Shown here: positions 17,989 to 33,501 of the stretch, piece by piece
Position numbering within the stretch: position 1 is the first letter of the stretch
Layout: each line of letters begins with the position of its first letter
Source of the DNA: a virus
IMG/VR virus record: IMGVR_UViG_3300002988_000032
Location: 12,793 to 76,792 of that record
Reading direction: 5' to 3' (one strand)
Length of the DNA: 64,000 nucleotides
Position numbers and translations under genes: made by a program
Notes under the pieces: model-generated
Told to the model about the DNA's origin: nothing
Database searches by the model: none
The model's input: only the letters and a program-made list of their open reading frames with translations

Positions 17989-18240
17989 ATGACGCCGGAA
18001 CGCGAAGCCGAACTGTTCGCCAAGCTCGACCTGATGCTCGAGCTGCATCGGAGGACGGAAGCCGATATCCGAGAGATGCGAGCGGACATTCGCGAAATGC
18101 GAGCCGACGTCGGCGGCATGCGGGCGGAGGCGGCGGAGACGAATAGCCGCCTCTCGAGAGTCGAAGGCCGGATCGAGGAACAGTCCAAATTCTTGCAACT
18201 CACTCTCGCGAGCCGGCAGAGCCGCAAGCCCGCCGCGTGA
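17989..18240 (+). CDS. Small coiled-coil protein (83 aa)
   Basis: ADIREMR-ADIREMR-ADVGGMR heptad repeat; AGGAGA RBS. Confidence 0.65.
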   Translation: MTPEREAELFAKLDLMLELHRRTEADIREMRADIREMRADVGGMRAEAAETNSRLSRVEGRIEEQSKFLQLTLASRQSRKPAA

Positions 18241-18284
18241 CCGGCTTTGCGTCACCCCCCACCGGAGTTTTTTGAGATCGACGT

Positions 18285-18344
18285 GACCCGCTTCAACAAT
18301 CGCCCGTTCCCGTGGGAGTGGGCGACTTTGAAACGAGACACCCC
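18285..18344 (+). repeat. 60-bp hairpin repeat, copy A
   Basis: 58/60 identical to 19005-19064; long imperfect palindrome ending TTTGAAAC. Confidence 0.95.
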
Positions 18345-18413
18345 ACACAAGGGTTTTTTGAAACAGCGCGGCGGGCCGCGGGAGCGGCGACCGGCGTCAA
18401 TAGGGGGTATGAA

Positions 18414-18902
18414 ATGAAATTCCGACTGCACAATGAACAGAGGTCGTCGCCGCTCGAGTATGAATTTCACGCGAGTTGTCAGGACGAACTAGCTGCTGGC
18501 CTCTATAGGGCGTGGATCTCAATTTACTCACAAGAAAAGAATCTCCTAAAATCTGATGAGTGGCTCTTGGCGCACAAAGCTAGGACAGTGGAGTTTTCTG
18601 GGCGGGATCAGCAACTGTACGTCGCTGAAAGGCAGCGTGAATATGCAAGAATTAGAGCGTTTCAGACAGCTAGATATTTTCTTCACGTTGGTTTGTCGGA
18701 AAGCCATCCGTTGGCGCCATGGACTCACGCTGTTGAATACTACGACGTTAGCGGCTTCCGCCATAATCTTATCGTCAACGGCGCCCCAAATGAGCAAATT
18801 TGCGCCCAAAAAAGCAAATCGTTCTTTCAAATTGAGGCGGCGGTCGATGCGCTGGAGATGTGGACCGGGTTTTCCGCCGCCCTTCTCGGCCCCAAGATAT
18901 AA
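18414..18902 (+). CDS. Hypothetical protein (162 aa, lower GC), flanked by direct repeats
   Basis: ATG 18414 after GGGGG RBS; no recognisable family. Confidence 0.6.
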   Translation: MKFRLHNEQRSSPLEYEFHASCQDELAAGLYRAWISIYSQEKNLLKSDEWLLAHKARTVEFSGRDQQLYVAERQREYARIRAFQTARYFLHVGLSESHPLAPWTHAVEYYDVSGFRHNLIVNGAPNEQICAQKSKSFFQIEAAVDALEMWTGFSAALLGPKI

Positions 18903-19004
18903 ACACCAACACAACATATAAAAGCGGGCGGGCCGACGCCCCGGCCCGTGCCGCACGGCACCCCCACCGGAGTTTTTTGAGAAACAGAGCGGACTTCCCC
19001 GCGC

Positions 19005-19064
19005 GACCCGCTTCAACAATCGCCCGTTCCCACGGGAGTGGGCGACTTTGAAACGAGACACCCC
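19005..19064 (+). repeat. 60-bp hairpin repeat, copy B
   Basis: Direct repeat of 18285-18344, exactly 720 bp downstream. Confidence 0.95.
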
Positions 19065-19149
19065 CCCCCGAAGGGTTTTTTGAACAGATCCCCGATTTTT
19101 GAACACCTGGCGCCGCGACGCGGCCGCCACAACACTCGGAGTCCGTCCG

Positions 19150-19722
19150 ATGCCGAACGCCGTGAAATTTTCAGATCTCGTCGCACTCTCGAAAGACGAG
19201 CGACGCGCCGTTCTCTCGTCCCTCTTCCCCTTCGGCGGTCTCATGACCGACGACAATTGTATCATGCACGACGCCGACCGAAACAAACTCATTCGGACCG
19301 CGATCAAGAACGCGGAGACGATTGGTTTGATCCCGGCGGGACTCCGCGTATCGGTGCGGTCGCCGCATTACGGTTCGGTGAAGGTCGAGGTCCGGGTGAC
19401 GAAGTTTCTCATATTGAACCCCGAGCATGTTCGTTACGGTAACGACAATCCCAGTCACACATATTACGACATGCCATGGGAAGCGAGGGAGCGCTTGACG
19501 CCCGCCGGCGAGGCCCTTATGAGCGCGCTCAAGGCTATCGCGTCCCAGTGGCGATATGATCGGTCCGACGCCATGTCGGATCACTTTGATACAAATTACT
19601 ATCTTGACGTTTCGTTCAATTACGAACTTGAACGCACGCAGCGCGCTTGGATCCTGTCCTTCCCGCGGTCGGTCCGCATCAGACCGAAAGTGACGGTTGG
19701 CGTTCAGTCCCGCGCCGCGTGA
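19150..19722 (+). CDS. LPD29-like (large polyvalent protein-associated domain) protein
   Basis: IRTAIK...RVSVRSPHYGSV and YDRSDAMSDHFDTNYYLDV patterns, recalled from memory. Confidence 0.5.
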   Translation: MPNAVKFSDLVALSKDERRAVLSSLFPFGGLMTDDNCIMHDADRNKLIRTAIKNAETIGLIPAGLRVSVRSPHYGSVKVEVRVTKFLILNPEHVRYGNDNPSHTYYDMPWEARERLTPAGEALMSALKAIASQWRYDRSDAMSDHFDTNYYLDVSFNYELERTQRAWILSFPRSVRIRPKVTVGVQSRAA

Positions 19723-19806
19723 CACCCCCCCACAGAGGTTTTTTGAAACGCCGCGCCCGCGCCGGTGATCGCCACCCCCACACCCGCAAGTCGGAAGATA
19801 CCCACC

Positions 19807-22800
19807 ATGTCCGTCACCATCGAATCCGCCGCGCTCAAGTCCGCTCTCGCCCGCGTCAAATGGGCGTGCGATCTCAAGTCGCGCATCCCCATCCTCGCAT
19901 GCGCTCGCATCGAGGCGCGTGGAGGGGAGGTCGTCATGACGACGACGGACATGGACGCGCTCGCGACGATCGTGGTTCCGGCGGACTCGTCGGAGGCGTG
20001 GACGGTCGCGGTCCCGTTCAAAGCTCTCGAAGCCGCGGCCAAGACAACAAAAGGATCGATCGAGCTTTCCACCGCGGCCGGCGGGTTGCTGATCCGCGCT
20101 GGCGCCGGACAATCGACCATCAAGGCTCTCGACCACTCCGATTTTCCGAGCTGCGTCAATCTCGGCGATCTCGGCGGATCGATCGTCATCCCCGCGTCGA
20201 CGCTCCGCGACATCTCCCGCAAGGTCGGATTCGCGATGTCGACGGACGACCGGCGCTATTACCTCCGCGGCATCCACATCCACCGCGACGAGACGGGATT
20301 CCACGCGGTCGCGACGGATGGTCACCGCATGGCGGTCATGGACGTCGCGGCGCGCTCCAGCGCCGGAACGTGGGATCCGGTGATCGTCGCTCACGGCTCG
20401 ATCAATGGATTGGGCAGGGCGCTCCCCGGAAGATACGCCGGAGATGTTGAAATCGAGCGGTTCGAACGGGGGGTCATCATCCGATTGCCGGACATGACAA
20501 TCGTATCCAAGGCGATCGACGGAACTTTCCCCGACTACAAACGCGTCGTCCCGTCTTTCCATCTTCGCCCGCCCGCTTCCGCCACGGTCGACCGCGCCGC
20601 GCTTCTGTCCGCTCTCTCCTCCGTCGGTTCCGCGGAACAGGCCGGATTCTACAGCGACGGTCGAGAACTGGTCATTCAAACCGACGACGCCGACGGCGGA
20701 GAGGCGGAGTCCGCCCTTCCCGCGGACTTTTCGGGCGATTTCCGGCGCTTCGGCGCGAACCGAAAGTATATGCTCGACGCCGCGACGGCGTTCGACGGAG
20801 ATAACGTCACCATCGCCCACGACGGGCCGGACTCCCCGATGGTGATCCGCGACGGCGACGCCGGATATTATCAAGTTCTCATGCCGTGCGGGCTTTTTGA
20901 AAAAATGCGCCCGCGCTCGAGCCTGGCGGACCCCGTCGTCGCGGACGCGCCCACCCCGGCGGAGGTTTTCGAAGTCGCGGAGGAAGCGCCGTCGGATCCG
21001 TCCACCGTCGAAATCATCGAAGCCGAAAGCGACGCGAGAGACACGCCCCCGGCGGAGGTTTTCGGAGAGCCGCGCCCCGCGGAAGCCGCGGGGGATGCGC
21101 CCGCGTCCGAAACGATCGAATGCGCCGTTCCCGACACCGACGATTCACCCCGCGACACGACCGGCGCTCGCGACGAAATCGCGGCCCGCTATGCCGCCGA
21201 ACTGGGGGCGAACGAGGTCAGCGACTTTCACCGCGCGTTCGCCGACGGGATTCTTCAACGGGACGCGGAATCCCTGATGTGGATTGTCAACGGCGTCAAC
21301 AAAGTCGCGCCGCGCCTCTTCCAGGCCGTGACCGGCTATCGGCTCCCTCGCGGGATCGCGGCGGGCCGAGCCGCGCTCGAGGCGTGGGGCGGACGCGCGG
21401 GCGTTCTTGTCGACATGGCGTGGAAAGAGGACTCCGCGGCGCTATGGCGAAGGGTCAAGTCCAGGAGAGTCGCGGCCGAGCGCATCATCATGGGCGAACG
21501 AACGGCGGCGGAGGTTGTCGACGACTTTATCGCCGACGGGTTCCGAGAACTCGTCTCCGCGACGACCGACGGCGGCCGGCGAGTTTTCCACTTGGTCAGG
21601 CCGACCGACGGCTTCCGGGTGAACCTGTCCGTTCATCGTGGAGCGGCCGTCTCCGCCTACGCCCGCGCGGTCATCGCCGCGATGGATCACGACGCCGCGA
21701 ACTCCGCCCCCCCGGCGGAGTTTTTGGAAGATCCCGCCCCGATCGACGACGCGTCTTCCGCCTCCGCCTTCGCCACGCTCGAACGCGCCGTCGTCGCGGA
21801 GTCAGACGAACCGCTCGGCCCGTTGGTCGTCGCCTATGAACAAGCGGTCGCGCGGGAGCGGGGGGAGGAGTGGAAAGCGCCGAAGCCGAGAGCGGAACGA
21901 AGCGCCGGGCGCGGCAAGCCTCCGGCGCGCGAACTTCCGGCGGACAAAAAAGCGGAAATGGTCGAAATCGTCGGCGTCGACTGGCGCGGAATTCCCGCGG
22001 CGATGATCGCCGTCGCGGAATACCTCGTCGCGCGCGATGCGCTGGAAGATTTCCCCTGGGCGATCTCCCACCACCTCTTCCGCCTCCCCAACGGACAAGT
22101 CCGCAACGCGTCCTCCGACGACACGGCGGAGTATCGCGCGGCGTTGGGGCGTGTCCGGGACGCCCTGGCCGCGTTCGAAGCCGCGGTCGGCTCTCCTCAC
22201 GCCCGTCTCGCTCTCGGATTGGAGGTGGACGCGAGAGACGCGGCCCCGGCGGAGGTTTTTGGAGACGCGGCGGGCACGCCGGAAGCGCCGTCCCCCGTCG
22301 AAATCGCCGAAGTGAAGGAGCGCGCGCGAGATGTTCCCCCGGCGGGGGAAGGCGAGAAGCTCGCACCGGCTCCGCGGTGGAGAGGGGGAAAGTTCCGCCT
22401 CCACGAAACACCGGCGGTGAGAATCGGAAAGCACGAATGGCGCGTTGCCGTCGTCATCGATCCGTATTTGGGGCGGACGCGATTTTCCGAATGGCGTCAC
22501 CTTGAATCCGTGGGCGAGTGGAATCATTACAGAGACTGGCCGTCGTATGATTTCAACGGACATCGCTCCGGTCTTCCGGCTTCCATCGGGAAAAAAGTTT
22601 ACGACAAGTTTGAAGCTGAAATCGACGCGGCGATGAATCGGAAATTCGATGAGGCGACCGCACGCACGATCCTTGACGACGCGCGCGCGTATTTTGAAAA
22701 ACGCACCGACCTCGCGACGGTCGCCGCGGAACTTGGGGTATCGCTTGAAGGCGCCGCCGCGGCGGTCGCGGGCGCCCCGCCGGAGGTTTTTGAAGCGCGC

Positions 22801-22866
22801 CATCTTTCGACCGCGCCGTTTTTCGCTTGCCCCATACATACGATGTATGTATCTTTCTCTTTGTGA
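19807..22866 (+). CDS. dnaN: DNA polymerase III beta clamp fused to a ~660-aa multi-module extension
   Basis: N-terminal ~360 aa has TTDMD, FAMSTDDRRYYLRGI, VATDGHRMA, IDGTFPDYKRVVP, VLMP clamp motifs; frame stays open to 22866. Confidence 0.8.
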   Translation: MSVTIESAALKSALARVKWACDLKSRIPILACARIEARGGEVVMTTTDMDALATIVVPADSSEAWTVAVPFKALEAAAKTTKGSIELSTAAGGLLIRAGAGQSTIKALDHSDFPSCVNLGDLGGSIVIPASTLRDISRKVGFAMSTDDRRYYLRGIHIHRDETGFHAVATDGHRMAVMDVAARSSAGTWDPVIVAHGSINGLGRALPGRYAGDVEIERFERGVIIRLPDMTIVSKAIDGTFPDYKRVVPSFHLRPPASATVDRAALLSALSSVGSAEQAGFYSDGRELVIQTDDADGGEAESALPADFSGDFRRFGANRKYMLDAATAFDGDNVTIAHDGPDSPMVIRDGDAGYYQVLMPCGLFEKMRPRSSLADPVVADAPTPAEVFEVAEEAPSDPSTVEIIEAESDARDTPPAEVFGEPRPAEAAGDAPASETIECAVPDTDDSPRDTTGARDEIAARYAAELGANEVSDFHRAFADGILQRDAESLMWIVNGVNKVAPRLFQAVTGYRLPRGIAAGRAALEAWGGRAGVLVDMAWKEDSAALWRRVKSRRVAAERIIMGERTAAEVVDDFIADGFRELVSATTDGGRRVFHLVRPTDGFRVNLSVHRGAAVSAYARAVIAAMDHDAANSAPPAEFLEDPAPIDDASSASAFATLERAVVAESDEPLGPLVVAYEQAVARERGEEWKAPKPRAERSAGRGKPPARELPADKKAEMVEIVGVDWRGIPAAMIAVAEYLVARDALEDFPWAISHHLFRLPNGQVRNASSDDTAEYRAALGRVRDALAAFEAAVGSPHARLALGLEVDARDAAPAEVFGDAAGTPEAPSPVEIAEVKERARDVPPAGEGEKLAPAPRWRGGKFRLHETPAVRIGKHEWRVAVVIDPYLGRTRFSEWRHLESVGEWNHYRDWPSYDFNGHRSGLPASIGKKVYDKFEAEIDAAMNRKFDEATARTILDDARAYFEKRTDLATVAAELGVSLEGAAAAVAGAPPEVFEARHLSTAPFFACPIHTMYVSFSL
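22827..22855 (+). promoter_or_regulatory. Sigma70-type promoter with palindromic operator
   Basis: TTGCCC-N17-TATCTT; IR ATACATAC-gat-GTATGTAT (22834-22852). Confidence 0.7.
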
Positions 22867-22910: not shown

Positions 22911-23411
22911 ATGGGCACCGAAATGGGTTTGGACAAAGCCGCGCATCTGCGCGCCCGTAAAATTCTGGATTTTACGCCGGACCGCGCTCCATCAGTCAAA
23001 GCCGCATGCGCGTGCGCCCGGACGGCGCTCCGCTTTGTGCCGGAAGGCGAGGAGCGCCCGCGCCTCGCGATCGTGGCGGCGGAAGCGTGGGCCGAAAATC
23101 CGACGAGTGACGATCTACTTGATGCCGCCCTCGCCGCGTCCCATGCCGCTGGGGTGTTTGCGTGCGGTGTCCCCCAAGGCGTGGGCGAGGACGCCGCCGC
23201 CTACGCCGCCTACGCCACCAACTTGATAATGTTTGATCCGACGGAAGCCCCGACACTGACCATAAACGCGATCGTCGAAGCTCGCGCGCACGCTGCCGAC
23301 CTTGTGCGGCACGCCCATGACTCCGGAGTACGCGCAGCGTACGAGGCCCTTCGCTACGACACCAAGCGCGAAATGGACGAAATTGTCAGACGATACACCA
23401 TCAACGCGTGA
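22911..23411 (+). CDS. Hypothetical helical protein (166 aa)
   Basis: AACACARTALRFVPEGEERPRLAIVAAEAW, an Imm5-like helical pattern; GGGAGA RBS. Confidence 0.6.
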   Translation: MGTEMGLDKAAHLRARKILDFTPDRAPSVKAACACARTALRFVPEGEERPRLAIVAAEAWAENPTSDDLLDAALAASHAAGVFACGVPQGVGEDAAAYAAYATNLIMFDPTEAPTLTINAIVEARAHAADLVRHAHDSGVRAAYEALRYDTKREMDEIVRRYTINA

Positions 23412-24006: not shown

Positions 24007-24518
24007 TCCGTGTCTTTATCCGCGACGAGGCGGGATCCCTGTCCGACTACATCGCGACCGACGATCCGGTCGAGGCGGAGGCGCACTACCTTCGCCTTAT
24101 CCAGATCCGCACGGTCACCCCCACGACGGCGATCATCGATCCAGGTCGCCCGACCGGGGCGCTGCTCCCGGCGCGCTACCGCCTTGACAAGACTTGCTCA
24201 CCCCCGGAAAGGGAGCAGGAAATCGAAAGGGGGGCGGTCCAGTGGCTGCCGTCCGGATCCCCGACCGTCGCGATGGTGAGAGGCCTCGCTTTGAGGCTAC
24301 GCGAAGATCATGGGGCGACGCGCGACGCTCTCGCGGCGTCGGTCGGCTACACAAAGGCCGCATGGGACGCGTGGGCAATGCCGGAGGCGGCGAAGGGGCA
24401 CCGAAGGATCCCGTGGGGGATCTACACGCTCGCCCTCATCAGGTGGGGGCTTCACCCCGACCATGCCCTGCGTAGAGGATCCCGGTCAGCCGCTCCGCGC
24501 CGCGTCGGGCGAGGTTGA
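24003..24518 (+). CDS. Protein with C-terminal KorC/Aca1-like HTH (171 aa)
   Basis: PTVAMVRGL...GATRDALAASVGYTKAAWDAW...GHRRIPWGIYTLAL; ATGA overlap with the upstream gene. Confidence 0.55.
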   Translation: MIRVFIRDEAGSLSDYIATDDPVEAEAHYLRLIQIRTVTPTTAIIDPGRPTGALLPARYRLDKTCSPPEREQEIERGAVQWLPSGSPTVAMVRGLALRLREDHGATRDALAASVGYTKAAWDAWAMPEAAKGHRRIPWGIYTLALIRWGLHPDHALRRGSRSAAPRRVGRG

Positions 24519-24728
24519 CGACGGCGGTGTGTGACACCCCCAGCGTCCGGGCGATCTGGCGGGTCGGCACGCCCGCCGCCGTCCCGGTCATGGCCAGGCA
24601 CCAGGCCCGCGTCCGCGCCGCGTCGCCCCCCGGTGGAGGTTTTTGAAGCGGCGAACGACTCCGCTCGGACCGGACCAACCCAAACGACCGCCGCCGACCC
24701 CCGGAATGGGTTTTTGGAGAGCCGCCCC

Positions 24729-32720: not shown

Positions 32721-32914
32721 GGCGCCGCGCCCTCCCCCGCCGATCGCGCGCCGCGCCCAGGCTCCCACCCCTCGCCCGGACGAATCTCGCGACACGCGCG
32801 GCATGGCCCGTCGGCGAAATCCCCGACGTGGTGGGCGCACGTTCCGCATCGGGCGACGCCCGGCGTCGTCTCGAGGCGGGAGTTTCCGATCTTGTCGGCG
32901 CGAACGTGTCTCAT
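32717..32914 (-). CDS. Small Cys-containing protein (65 aa)
   Basis: CGTC and CRAC pairs; overlaps neighbours. Confidence 0.45.
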   Translation of the reverse strand: MRHVRADKIGNSRLETTPGVARCGTCAHHVGDFADGPCRACREIRPGEGWEPGRGARSAGEGAAP

Positions 32915-33501
32915 GCCGCCACCTCGTTATCGAAGAGATCAACCTGATTTCCCCAGCAATCCCAGCCGGCGACGGTGGAACGGGCGAAAAGCTCCGCCTT
33001 CTCGACCCCCGGATAAGCGCGGTCCAAATCGGAATAGAGGCGGTCCGGCTTGCGCGAGTGCTCGCGCCGGCGGGCGGAGATGATGTTGGGCACGGCCATG
33101 TTGCGCCAACGTCCGGGGGAGCCGCGCGTCCCCACAATCCACGGCTCCGCCGACGACCGCCAATAGTAGCCGGTGCCGATCGCCGGATCGCCGTCGACGG
33201 TCAGTTTTTCCCAACAGCCCATGGTCGCGTACTTGAAACCCCACGCATCCATCACGGTCAACGCGGCGGGGAGAAACGGCGCGGTCGTCCACATCACCAA
33301 CATACAGTTACGATTTGACAGCGACCCGACCGGCAACGCGGCGATCTCATCGAGCGTCATCGTGGGGTAAGGGCACGGTTTGCCGTTGCCCTTCTCCGAC
33401 CACGTTTTGAACTTCCATGGGGGGTCGGCGAGGATCACGCCGTACCGACGCGGCGTGAGGTTCCCGAACGGCCAGTCGCGGGGGCGGGGGTCGAGCATCA
33501 C
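32911..33501 (-). CDS. MT-A70 family adenine methyltransferase
   Basis: VILADPPW, YPTMTLDEI, WGFKY, HSRKPD, ELFAR. Confidence 0.9.
   Translation of the reverse strand: MMLDPRPRDWPFGNLTPRRYGVILADPPWKFKTWSEKGNGKPCPYPTMTLDEIAALPVGSLSNRNCMLVMWTTAPFLPAALTVMDAWGFKYATMGCWEKLTVDGDPAIGTGYYWRSSAEPWIVGTRGSPGRWRNMAVPNIISARRREHSRKPDRLYSDLDRAYPGVEKAELFARSTVAGWDCWGNQVDLFDNEVAA

What the first reader, a model, noticed from the sequence alone, without database searches (positions are those of the whole stretch)
19807..22866. 1019-aa beta-clamp fusion built from repeat-delimited modules
Seen: a complete DnaN (~360 aa) ends at VLMP exactly where a partial motif copy (GGGCTTTTTGAAA, 20890) begins. The frame then continues ~660 aa through at least three globular-looking segments separated by acidic/Pro linkers carrying PPAEVF repeats; 21031-21068 and 22228-22265 are near-identical 38-mers. 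The last codons run through the next promoter, suggesting stop-codon loss. Known: phage DnaN genes exist, and large polyvalent proteins of mobile elements concatenate counter-defence domains. Inference: a polyvalent protein that uses a sliding clamp to carry effectors on DNA, or a clamp decoy against clamp-sensing defences.
Basis: partly seen in the sequence, partly recalled or inferred. Interest (0 to 1): 0.7.

Follow-up and report, generated by a model that had tools for sequence, protein, structure and literature searches.

The report
Phage sliding clamp fused to clients
An uncultured phage encodes one 1019-residue protein in which a complete DNA sliding clamp is joined to three extra modules, two of them from new protein families that elsewhere are separate genes carrying the standard clamp-docking peptide, so the phage appears to have welded clamp passengers onto the clamp itself.

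Summary
Window 19807-22866 (+) is one open 1019-codon frame with a coding signature throughout. Residues 1-363 are a full beta clamp (DnaN), above the NCBIfam equivalog cut-off. The remaining 656 residues form three globular modules (A, B, C) on acidic, proline-rich linkers that carry five in-frame PPAEVF-type repeats.

An exhaustive search shows that A and C belong to two undescribed mobile-element families. C relatives are about 100-aa stand-alone proteins. Of 77, 27 end in a canonical clamp-binding motif (QLDLF, QLSLF, QADLF), against 1.3 expected. A relatives are stand-alone proteins or domains inside giant polyvalent proteins (with DarA_N, KfrB, LPD3), three of which start MQLDMFG.

So this is a Rosetta-stone fusion of a clamp with likely clamp clients. 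The linkers are copies of a strand-specific DNA repeat that also fills the island's intergenic spacers. The fusion was therefore probably built by joining neighbouring cassettes through their spacers.

Whether PPAEVF still docks in the clamp cleft is unproven (about 35%). I found no support for the clamp-decoy idea. No relative with the same architecture and no reads were found. Other notes of this scan had already recorded the repeat on this same stretch.

The parts
19807..22866 (+). Whole 1019-codon ORF (P0001), stop TGA at 22864-22866
   Evidence: The coding GC3 pattern runs throughout. DnaN, A and C homologies all lie in this one frame.
19807..20895 (+). Beta sliding clamp (DnaN) domain, aa 1-363, ending VLMPCGL
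   Evidence: PF00712, PF02767 and PF02768. phrog_947 6e-61. TIGR00663 150.3 bits, above the cut-off. PDB 6deg 4e-39 over residues 1-361, with RYYL, TDGHR, PDYKRV, N..Y and VLMP conserved.
20890..20902 (+). Partial repeat copy GGGCTTTTTGAAA at the clamp's natural C-terminus (T5 run). The -1 frame reads TGA here.
   Evidence: Free-standing relatives stop 3 residues after MP.
20899..21153 (+). Linker 1 (aa 365-449), acidic and Pro-rich, with PAEVF at 20956-20970 and 21049-21063
   Evidence: Homologous to linker 3.
21154..21696 (+). Module A (aa 450-630): two-subdomain helical/alpha-beta domain of an undescribed family found free-standing and in polyvalent proteins
   Evidence: Exhaustive phmmer hits at 1e-11 and weaker. 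Alignment A1. AF2 model pLDDT 83.
21697..21954 (+). Linker 2 (aa 631-716), with PAEFL at 21712-21726 directly after module A
21955..22230 (+). Module B (aa 717-808): globular-looking, with no homologue found
   Evidence: Composition. No hit, Pfam or PHROG.
22231..22389 (+). Linker 3 (aa 809-861), with PAEVF at 22246-22260 and a decayed second copy PPAGEGE at 22336-22356
22390..22758 (+). Module C (aa 862-984): core IGKHEWR...WR...DWPSYDFN..GLP of an undescribed small-protein family, plus a helical extension
   Evidence: phmmer hits at 1e-12 and weaker. Alignments A2 and A4. AF2 model pLDDT 77.
22759..22866 (+). Tail: PPEVF at 22777-22791 (repeat copy with T5), then 24 run-on codons in AT-richer DNA with palindrome 22833-22849
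18250..19750 (+). Context: five intergenic copies of the same repeat (T6 form, core starts 18265, 18351, 18970, 19073, 19735), arranged as two composite units plus the copy upstream of dnaN
24620..24722 (+). Context: two further repeat copies (core starts 24636, 24708) upstream of the ATP-dependent DNA ligase gene

Best explanation
SHOWN. One real gene of an uncultured, high-GC phage encodes a complete beta sliding clamp. Its nearest clamps are in phages of Alphaproteobacteria. The clamp's C-terminus lies beside the client-binding cleft and continues into a 656-residue tail of three globular modules on flexible acidic/proline linkers. Modules A and C belong to two undescribed families. In other phages, plasmids and polyvalent proteins, members of these families are separate genes or domains. 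Many C-family members, and a minority of A-family members, carry a canonical beta-clamp-binding motif at a terminus.

INFERRED. The gene is a Rosetta-stone fusion. Proteins that normally dock on the clamp through a short peptide have here been made permanent passengers of a phage-encoded clamp. The record holds no polymerase or clamp loader, so the host clamp loader would load the dimer on phage DNA. The ring would then drag two copies of A-B-C along nascent phage DNA. What A, B and C do is unknown; their company elsewhere suggests establishment or DNA-protection roles.

ORIGIN (inferred from the sequence). The linkers are in-frame copies of the island's strand-specific C-run/GGAGG/T-run repeat, which otherwise sits in the spacers between cassettes. 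Neighbouring cassettes were therefore probably joined through their spacers, with loss of stops and starts.

OPEN. In the reading frame the repeat spells PPAEVF. It sits where free-standing relatives have QLxLF, so it may act as a weak clamp-binding peptide that docks in cis. I put that at about 35%.
For: Single gene. The frame is open and has a coding signature over 3 kb. The DnaN, A and C homologies all lie in that same frame, and no in-frame start precedes A or C.

Full clamp. Three Pfam domains, TIGR00663 above the cut-off, and cleft residues conserved against PDB clamps.

Family C. There are 77 cluster representatives, mostly 85-130 aa. Of these, 27 have Q-x-x-hydrophobic-[FLIW] in the last 15 residues, against 1.26 expected (maximum 6 in 500 shuffles). 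Fourteen fit a strict QL[SD]LF-like pattern against 0.06 expected. IMG/VR examples end QPSLF and QLDLF.

Family A. It occurs as 180-275-aa proteins and inside 900-4900-aa proteins that carry DarA_N, KfrB, LPD3, InPase or Eco57I/SNF2 domains. Three of the giants start MQ[LF][DN]MFG, four stand-alone members end QxGFxF, and P0058 has QDFDLFGEP twice.

Placement of PPAEVF. It follows the clamp, A, B and C at the positions where relatives carry their motifs.

Independent cases. The clamp fusion P0002 (810 aa, next to a ligase, as here) has AADLFG 26-30 residues after its clamp end. The same phage has a DNA methyltransferase ending NQVDLFDNE.

Feasibility. Engineered C-terminal clamp-MutL fusions form rings with the motif docked in the cleft (PMC6511837; PDB 6e8e).

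Origin. There are twelve repeat copies, all within the island. Linkers 1 and 3 are homologous units of about 135 nt, with two motif copies 93 nt apart; the intergenic composite units have theirs 72-103 nt apart.
Against: No relative with the same architecture was found, and the sequence is known from a single metagenomic contig.

A, B and C have no known fold or function.

PPAEVF lacks the motif's Gln. Its Val is always the rare codon GTT (4 of 4, against 16% genome-wide), so the T-run is conserved or recent at the DNA level, and the likeness to a clamp-binding peptide could be a by-product of translating a DNA repeat.

Only about a third of C relatives, and a minority of A relatives, show a motif.

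Expression of the full-length product is untested.
Confidence: 0.58

Rival explanations
1. Accidental chimera. Recombination between the island's spacer repeats (PeSL-like cassette shuffling) happened to leave four cassettes in one frame. The modules have nothing to do with the clamp. PPAEVF is only the translation of a DNA-level regulatory or recombination repeat. The fusion is neutral or on its way to decay.
For: The linkers are DNA-level copies of the intergenic repeat, with the same architecture. The rare GTT codon is kept in all copies. The ORF runs on into non-coding-like DNA at its end. Gene 18414-18902 is bracketed by duplicated composite units, as a shuffled cassette would be. PeSL precedent: PMC2839356.
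Against: All five copies are in the same reading frame, which has a chance of about 1-6% if frames were random. The coding signature holds across the linkers. Two of the three modules come from families independently tied to clamp-binding motifs, which an arbitrary set of neighbours would not predict. A second phage also extends its clamp and places an xDLFG peptide after it.
Confidence: 0.25
2. Sequence or assembly artefact. Indel errors at the T-runs, or misjoining at repeats, merged separate genes. The true products are a roughly 40-kDa DnaN and several small proteins.
For: The junctions are homopolymer-bearing repeats. With one more T at 20890-20902 the clamp would end MPCGLF-TGA, and ATG 20906 could start the next gene. 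There is only one contig, and no reads could be examined.
Against: A and C lack their own in-frame start codons. Adding a T at the other junctions does not give clean gene ends (reading). Three homologous domains stay in one frame over 3 kb without a stop. The shared exact words are at most 16 nt and the 38-mers differ at 3 positions, which is too short to misassemble with usual k-mers.
Confidence: 0.06
3. Clamp decoy. The clamp part is bait for host defences that sense clamps or clamp loading, and the tail carries inhibitors.
For: None specific. Module A occurs in polyvalent proteins that are thought to act in conflicts (PMC5512222).
Against: The clamp keeps the cleft and core motifs of working clamps and passes the equivalog threshold. 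It lies in a replication neighbourhood with ligase, SSB, helicase and initiator. No module resembles a known anti-defence protein.
Confidence: 0.04
4. Two products from one gene. A -1 slip at the T-run that ends the clamp (GGG CTT TTT GAA, where the -1 frame reads GCT TTT TGA) yields a free clamp besides the fusion, as dnaX yields gamma and tau.
For: A -1-frame TGA directly follows the T5 run at the exact end of the clamp domain.
Against: There is no canonical X XXY YYZ heptamer in register, no stimulatory structure was tested, and this is a single sequence.
Confidence: 0.07

Closest known systems
Phage-encoded beta sliding clamps (DnaN), e.g. Rhizobium phage 16-3 p081, Aurantimonas phage AmM-1, Caulobacter phage Sansa
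   Same: The N-terminal 363 residues are a full three-domain clamp, 29-32% identical to these. Like them, the phage has a lone clamp gene; this record holds no polymerase or clamp loader.
   Different: Those are about 350-370 aa and stop 3 residues after the MP motif. This one continues for 656 residues.
Polyvalent proteins of phages and conjugative elements (Iyer et al. 2017, PMC5512222)
   Same: Several unrelated modules are strung in one polypeptide of a mobile element. Module A is shared with proteins carrying DarA_N, KfrB, LPD3 and InPase.
   Different: P0001 has no hallmark Pfam domain of that class, no processing peptidase and no sign of virion packaging. It is headed by a replication clamp. 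The paper's text does not contain the words clamp, DnaN or processivity.
Engineered beta clamp-MutL C-terminal fusions (Almawi et al. 2019, PMC6511837; PDB 6E8E, 6E8D)
   Same: A client is joined to the clamp's C-terminus by a flexible linker. The ring still forms and the client's motif docks in the adjacent cleft.
   Different: Those fusions are artificial, with a 3-5-residue linker and one small domain. Here the fusion is natural, with three modules and linkers of about 53 to 86 residues.
Clamp-binding-motif clients (QL[SD]LF class: Pol II/III/IV/V, MutS/L, Hda; phage Mu MuC, PMC12867686)
   Same: Families C and A carry such motifs at their termini, as does this phage's own methyltransferase (QVDLF).
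   Different: In P0001 the client modules are covalently attached. The local peptide is PPAEVF, which has no Gln.
PeSL regulatory cassettes of T4-type phages (Arbiol et al. 2010, PMC2839356)
   Same: Short repeated intergenic elements confined to a plastic accessory region bracket cassettes and could mediate shuffling.
   Different: Neither promoter nor terminator activity is shown here. The repeat is also translated inside a gene, which is not a known PeSL feature.
Other natural DnaN fusions: P0002 (810 aa, metagenomic phage contig L015) and P0003 (676 aa, DnaN + DUF7007)
   Same: Each is a clamp with a long C-terminal extension. The P0002 gene also lies next to an ATP-dependent ligase gene and has AADLFG shortly after its clamp domain.
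   Different: Their extensions are unrelated to A, B and C.

Membership tests
Beta sliding clamp DnaN (TIGR00663; PF00712/PF02767/PF02768) | Three tandem clamp domains covering the whole profile | tested here: met
   Pfam domains at residues 1-115, 128-243 and 262-360. TIGR00663 covers 1-361 of a 367-position profile at 150.3 bits, cut-off 137.65.
Beta sliding clamp DnaN (TIGR00663; PF00712/PF02767/PF02768) | Conserved client-binding cleft residues (E. coli R152-L155, T172-L177, P242-V247, N320/Y323, V360-M362) | tested here: met
   RYYL, TDGHRM, PDYKRV, N..Y and VLMP align with solved clamps. The last rim residues differ (CGL instead of MRL/MRV). The E. coli residue numbers are given from memory.
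Beta sliding clamp DnaN (TIGR00663; PF00712/PF02767/PF02768) | Head-to-tail dimer ring loaded on DNA by a clamp loader | not testable with these tools
   Needs SEC-MALS and a loading assay.
Polyvalent proteins (Iyer et al. 2017) | Two or more unrelated domains in one polypeptide of a phage or plasmid | tested here: met
   Clamp plus A, B and C.
Polyvalent proteins (Iyer et al. 2017) | Hallmark domains (DarA-N, ArdC-N, MuF, LPD families, processing metallopeptidase) | tested here: not met
   No such Pfam hit in P0001 at E<=1. Only module A's relatives co-occur with them.
Polyvalent proteins (Iyer et al. 2017) | Delivered with the DNA (virion-packaged or conjugatively transferred) | not testable with these tools
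   The gene lies among early and replication genes, not structural ones.
Beta-clamp-binding motif (QL[SD]LF / QxxLxL) | Gln at position 1 | tested here: not met
   The P0001 repeats read P-A-E-V-F.
Beta-clamp-binding motif (QL[SD]LF / QxxLxL) | Hydrophobic residue at position 4 and Phe or Leu at position 5, in a flexible region or at a terminus | tested here: met
   V-F (or F-L) in Pro- and acid-rich linkers, 21 residues after the clamp end and directly after A, B and C.
Beta-clamp-binding motif (QL[SD]LF / QxxLxL) | Binding to the clamp cleft | not testable with these tools
   Needs peptide-binding measurements or a co-crystal structure.
Module C family (undescribed; IGKHEWR...DWPSYDFND..GLP) | Invariant I, G, H, W, R...R...W...W, P...G, P columns | tested here: met
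   All eleven invariant columns of A4 are kept in P0001 862-960.
Module A family (undescribed; IAxxYA...FHxxFA...LANGLN..GK.VF..VTG..LP) | Conserved N-terminal helical subdomain plus the C-terminal GF...NLS subdomain | tested here: met
   Invariant A, N, N, L, P, W and G columns are kept, with 24-32% identity over both subdomains.
PeSL-type regulatory cassettes | Sigma-70 promoter plus stem-loop terminator in each repeat | tested here: inconclusive
   The consensus scan gives one weak promoter-like site in one copy and no consistent terminator.

The most novel reading that the evidence does not exclude
The island's C-run/GGAGG/T-run repeat is a dual-use element. In its T6 form it ends a gene with a clamp-docking tail (...PP.EVF-TGA). 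In its T5 or T4 form it reads through into the next cassette. Homopolymer length would thus toggle neighbouring genes between free clamp clients and a clamp-fused polyprotein. The result is a self-loaded tool belt whose own tail peptides occupy or gate the clamp cleft. By extension, many giant polyvalent proteins (those starting MQLDMFG) and two new small-protein families would be clamp-docked effectors of mobile elements.
Probability: 0.1. Interest if true: 0.85.

Novelty: new variant of a known kind. Interest (0 to 1): 0.6.

Why it matters
Sliding clamps are the hub on which replication and repair proteins take turns through one short peptide. A natural clamp that carries passengers covalently would be a new way for a phage to bias that competition on its own DNA.

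The fusion also works as a Rosetta stone. It points to two undescribed and fairly widespread families of mobile-element proteins, and to some giant polyvalent proteins with N-terminal QLDMFG tags, as clamp-docked factors. The 2017 polyvalent-protein survey does not make that link; its text does not contain the words clamp, DnaN or processivity.

The locus also shows how spacer repeats in a phage accessory island can be turned into protein linkers. All of this can be tested with simple peptide-binding and expression experiments.

Tried and rejected
Relatives of the fusion. IMG/VR scans with the extension and with the clamp found none. The near-length search found only the query itself. tblastn of the extension against cultured phages gave no match. 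On plasmids only the N-terminal half of module A matched, on Pseudomonas megaplasmid hypothetical proteins.

Repeat elsewhere. A DNA pattern scan for the repeat in IMG/VR gave nine single, probably chance, hits. The 21-nt core of the 63-nt spacer repeat gave none.

Genomic context of relatives. The contigs of the closest A and C relatives were too short to show context. Typical A and C members have no match in cultured phages.

Fold searches. Models of A and C gave nothing convincing. Foldseek against PDB found no match at E<=0.001. VIA-align wide gave a best Z of 3.5 for C and 5.7 for A, the latter to generic helical hairpins. BFVD gave a best E of 0.01. Atlas gave TM<=0.32. The Atlas feature search gave no usable hit. 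PDB profile searches found nothing.

Complex prediction. A run of the clamp domain with linker residues 372-432 returned 'no answer'. It is neither support nor evidence against.

Reads. No public sequencing run was listed for the stretch, and no RNA holder was listed, so read support and expression could not be examined.

TGA recoding or readthrough was considered because repeat copies read EVF-TGA in frame behind upstream stops. I dropped it. The ligase and other well-supported genes end in TGA, and the duplicated composite units place the same DNA in different frames.

Intrinsic terminator or sigma-70 promoter readings of the repeat have no consistent support.
Full report
WHERE IT IS. The window is part of a 78.5-kb IMG/VR virus record, linear and estimated 84% complete. 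The finding lies in an early, accessory stretch. Upstream are small genes of unknown function. One of them, 19150-19719, resembles part of phrog_1926. Downstream are an ATP-dependent DNA ligase, and on the other strand an SSB, an SF2 helicase, a replication initiator and DNA methyltransferases. The record holds no Pol III alpha, family-A polymerase or clamp-loader gene.

Positions 19807-22866 (+) form an uninterrupted 1019-codon frame. In a 65% GC genome long spurious frames are common; a 567-codon antisense frame overlaps the clamp. I therefore checked codon-position GC. The coding pattern holds in this frame from the start to about 22800 and then fades.

Residues 1-360 match all three Pfam clamp domains, phrog_947 (6e-61) and the NCBIfam dnaN equivalog above its cut-off. 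They align end to end with solved clamps, keeping the RYYL, TDGHR, PDYKRV, N..Y and VLMP motifs that line the client cleft. Free-standing relatives stop three residues after the MP motif. Here the frame continues at exactly that point, through GGGCTTTTTGAAA (20890-20902).

ANATOMY OF THE EXTENSION. There are three segments of globular composition: A (aa 450-630), B (717-808) and C (862-984). They alternate with linkers that are 13-15% proline and 19-26% acidic.

Five in-frame copies of a PPAEVF-type peptide lie at aa 384, 415, 636, 814 and 991. That is two after the clamp and one directly after each module. They belong to homologous linker units of about 135 nt, each with two motif copies 93 nt apart; the second copy in linker 3 has decayed to PPAGEGE.

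WHAT THE MODULES ARE. Pfam, PHROGs and NCBIfam find nothing in the extension. An exhaustive phmmer search of 1.84 billion cluster representatives gave 112 hits besides the query itself, in two groups.

Module C matches 77 proteins, mostly 85-130 aa and stand-alone, with an invariant IGKHEWR...WR...W...WP.YD.ND...GLP core that P0001 keeps. Many of them end in QLDLF, QLSLF, QADLF, QFDLF or QPSLF, the canonical beta-clamp-binding motif (consensus known from Dalrymple et al. 2001; my knowledge). Counted formally, 27 of 77 have Q-x-x-hydrophobic-[FLIW] in the last 15 residues, against 1.26 expected and a maximum of 6 in 500 shuffles. Fourteen fit a strict pattern against 0.06 expected. Two of three IMG/VR examples also end this way, and one has a neighbouring gene ending QGSLFDLVA. 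A plasmid example sits beside DUF4942 and DUF2958 genes.

Module A matches 35 proteins. About two thirds (22) are proteins of 179-440 aa, mostly 180-275 aa; one is 622 aa, and 12 are embedded in proteins of 900-4900 aa. Those larger proteins carry DarA_N, KfrB, LPD3, InPase or Eco57I/SNF2 domains, which marks them as polyvalent proteins in the sense of Iyer et al. 2017. Three of these giants begin MQLDMFG, MQFDMFGE or MQLNMFGE. Four stand-alone members end QxGFxF, and one (P0058) has QDFDLFGEP twice.

Module B has no detectable relative.

AlphaFold models of A (pLDDT 83, two subdomains) and C (pLDDT 77, a four-stranded sheet plus helices) match no solved or predicted fold convincingly.

INTERPRETATION. 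The robust inference is a Rosetta-stone one. Two of the three passengers come from families repeatedly equipped with the clamp-docking peptide, and here they are fused to a clamp. This is sterically reasonable, because the clamp's C-terminus borders the cleft. Engineered C-terminal clamp-MutL fusions form normal rings with the motif docked (PMC6511837).

Two further observations fit a phage that uses the clamp as a platform. Its own methyltransferase (32914-33501, minus strand) ends NQVDLFDNE. An unrelated metagenomic phage has an 810-aa clamp fusion, again next to a ligase, with AADLFG 26-30 residues after the clamp domain.

ORIGIN OF THE LINKERS, AND THE MAIN CAVEAT. The peptide repeat is also a DNA repeat: a C-run, then GGAGG or GGG, then a T-run, then GA. 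It occurs 12 times in the record, always on the + strand and only between 18265 and 24708. Seven copies are intergenic. Other notes of this scan recorded the same thing.

The intergenic copies form composite units with two motifs 72-103 nt apart, the architecture of linkers 1 and 3. Intergenic copies mostly have T6, which in one frame reads EVF-TGA. The in-ORF copies have T4-5 and read through.

Within the ORF the motif's valine is always the rare codon GTT (4 of 4, against 16% genome-wide). So the T-run is conserved, or recent, at the DNA level. The linkers are therefore best seen as spacer repeats captured in frame when neighbouring cassettes were joined, comparable to PeSL-mediated shuffling in T4-type phages (PMC2839356).

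This weakens, but does not remove, the idea that PPAEVF is a working clamp-binding peptide. All five copies share one frame, which has a chance of about 1-6%. They sit where relatives carry QLxLF. A-E-V-F resembles the A-D-M-F of the Pol III alpha motif QADMF (my knowledge). I put a functional peptide at about 35%.

RIVALS.
- An accidental, functionless chimera: 25%.
- A sequencing or assembly artefact: 6%. It could not be tested, because no reads were listed.
- A dnaX-like -1 frameshift giving a free clamp as well: 7%. The basis is that the -1 frame reads TGA right after the T-run at the clamp's end.
It has no specific support.

VERDICT. This is a real and unusual gene: a phage sliding clamp fused to modules from two new, probably clamp-docking, protein families, assembled through the island's spacer repeats. 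It is a new variant of a known kind. Its main value is as a pointer to untested clamp clients among mobile-element proteins.

Noticed in passing
window 32914-33501 (-): A DNA methyltransferase (phrog_359, 7.8e-68) ends NQVDLFDNE, a canonical beta-clamp-binding motif 6 residues from its C-terminus.
   Followed up: partly
window 19720-19746 and 18238-18279: Behind the TGA stops of genes 19150-19722 and 17989-18240, the repeat is in frame with the upstream gene. It reads ...RAA*HPPTEVF* and ...PAA*PALRHPPPEFFE. Both stops sit in the same context, GCCGCGTGAC. This could be a lost tail, readthrough or chance (1 in 9); it is unresolved.
   Followed up: partly
window 20887-20908: At the end of the clamp domain the -1 frame reads GCT TTT TGA, and an in-frame ATG follows at 20906. 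A frameshift or a one-T longer allele would give a free 364-aa clamp plus a separate 653-aa protein.
   Followed up: no
proteins P0018, P0023, P0031 (2813, 3487 and 999 aa): Giant polyvalent proteins carrying module A begin MQLDMFG, MQFDMFGE or MQLNMFGE, a clamp-binding-type motif at the extreme N-terminus. The 2017 polyvalent-protein paper does not contain the words clamp, DnaN or processivity.
   Followed up: partly
L015:2938-6050: A second natural clamp fusion (P0002, 810 aa; its extension is rich in R/A/E and looks like coiled coil) is followed directly by an ATP-dependent ligase gene on a phage-like contig with lysozyme and tail genes.
   Followed up: partly
window 24519-24728: The ligase frame is open upstream of its ATG and reads PPVEVFEAAN and PRNGFLES through two repeat copies. 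A 79-codon HTH ORF lies on the opposite strand over the same DNA (24439-24678). Which strand is coding here was not settled.
   Followed up: no
window 22833-22849: A perfect palindrome, CATACAT-ACG-ATGTATG, lies inside the last codons of the ORF, in AT-richer DNA just upstream of gene 22911-23411. It looks like an operator.
   Followed up: no
window 19150-19719 (+): The gene just upstream of dnaN matches positions 998-1137 of the 1410-position phrog_1926 ('released from the phage upon host infection') and phrog_10415. It may be another free-standing piece of a polyvalent-type protein.
   Followed up: no
L016:4995-6166: In an IMG/VR contig a module-C homologue ending QPSLF is followed by a 278-aa gene ending QGSLFDLVA, so two adjacent early genes both carry clamp-type tails.
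   Followed up: no
window 18282-18344 and 19002-19064: Two 63-nt spacer segments, 95% identical, bracket the lower-GC gene 18414-18902. Each is flanked by two copies of the repeat, as if the gene were a cassette inserted by duplication of the composite unit.
   Followed up: partly
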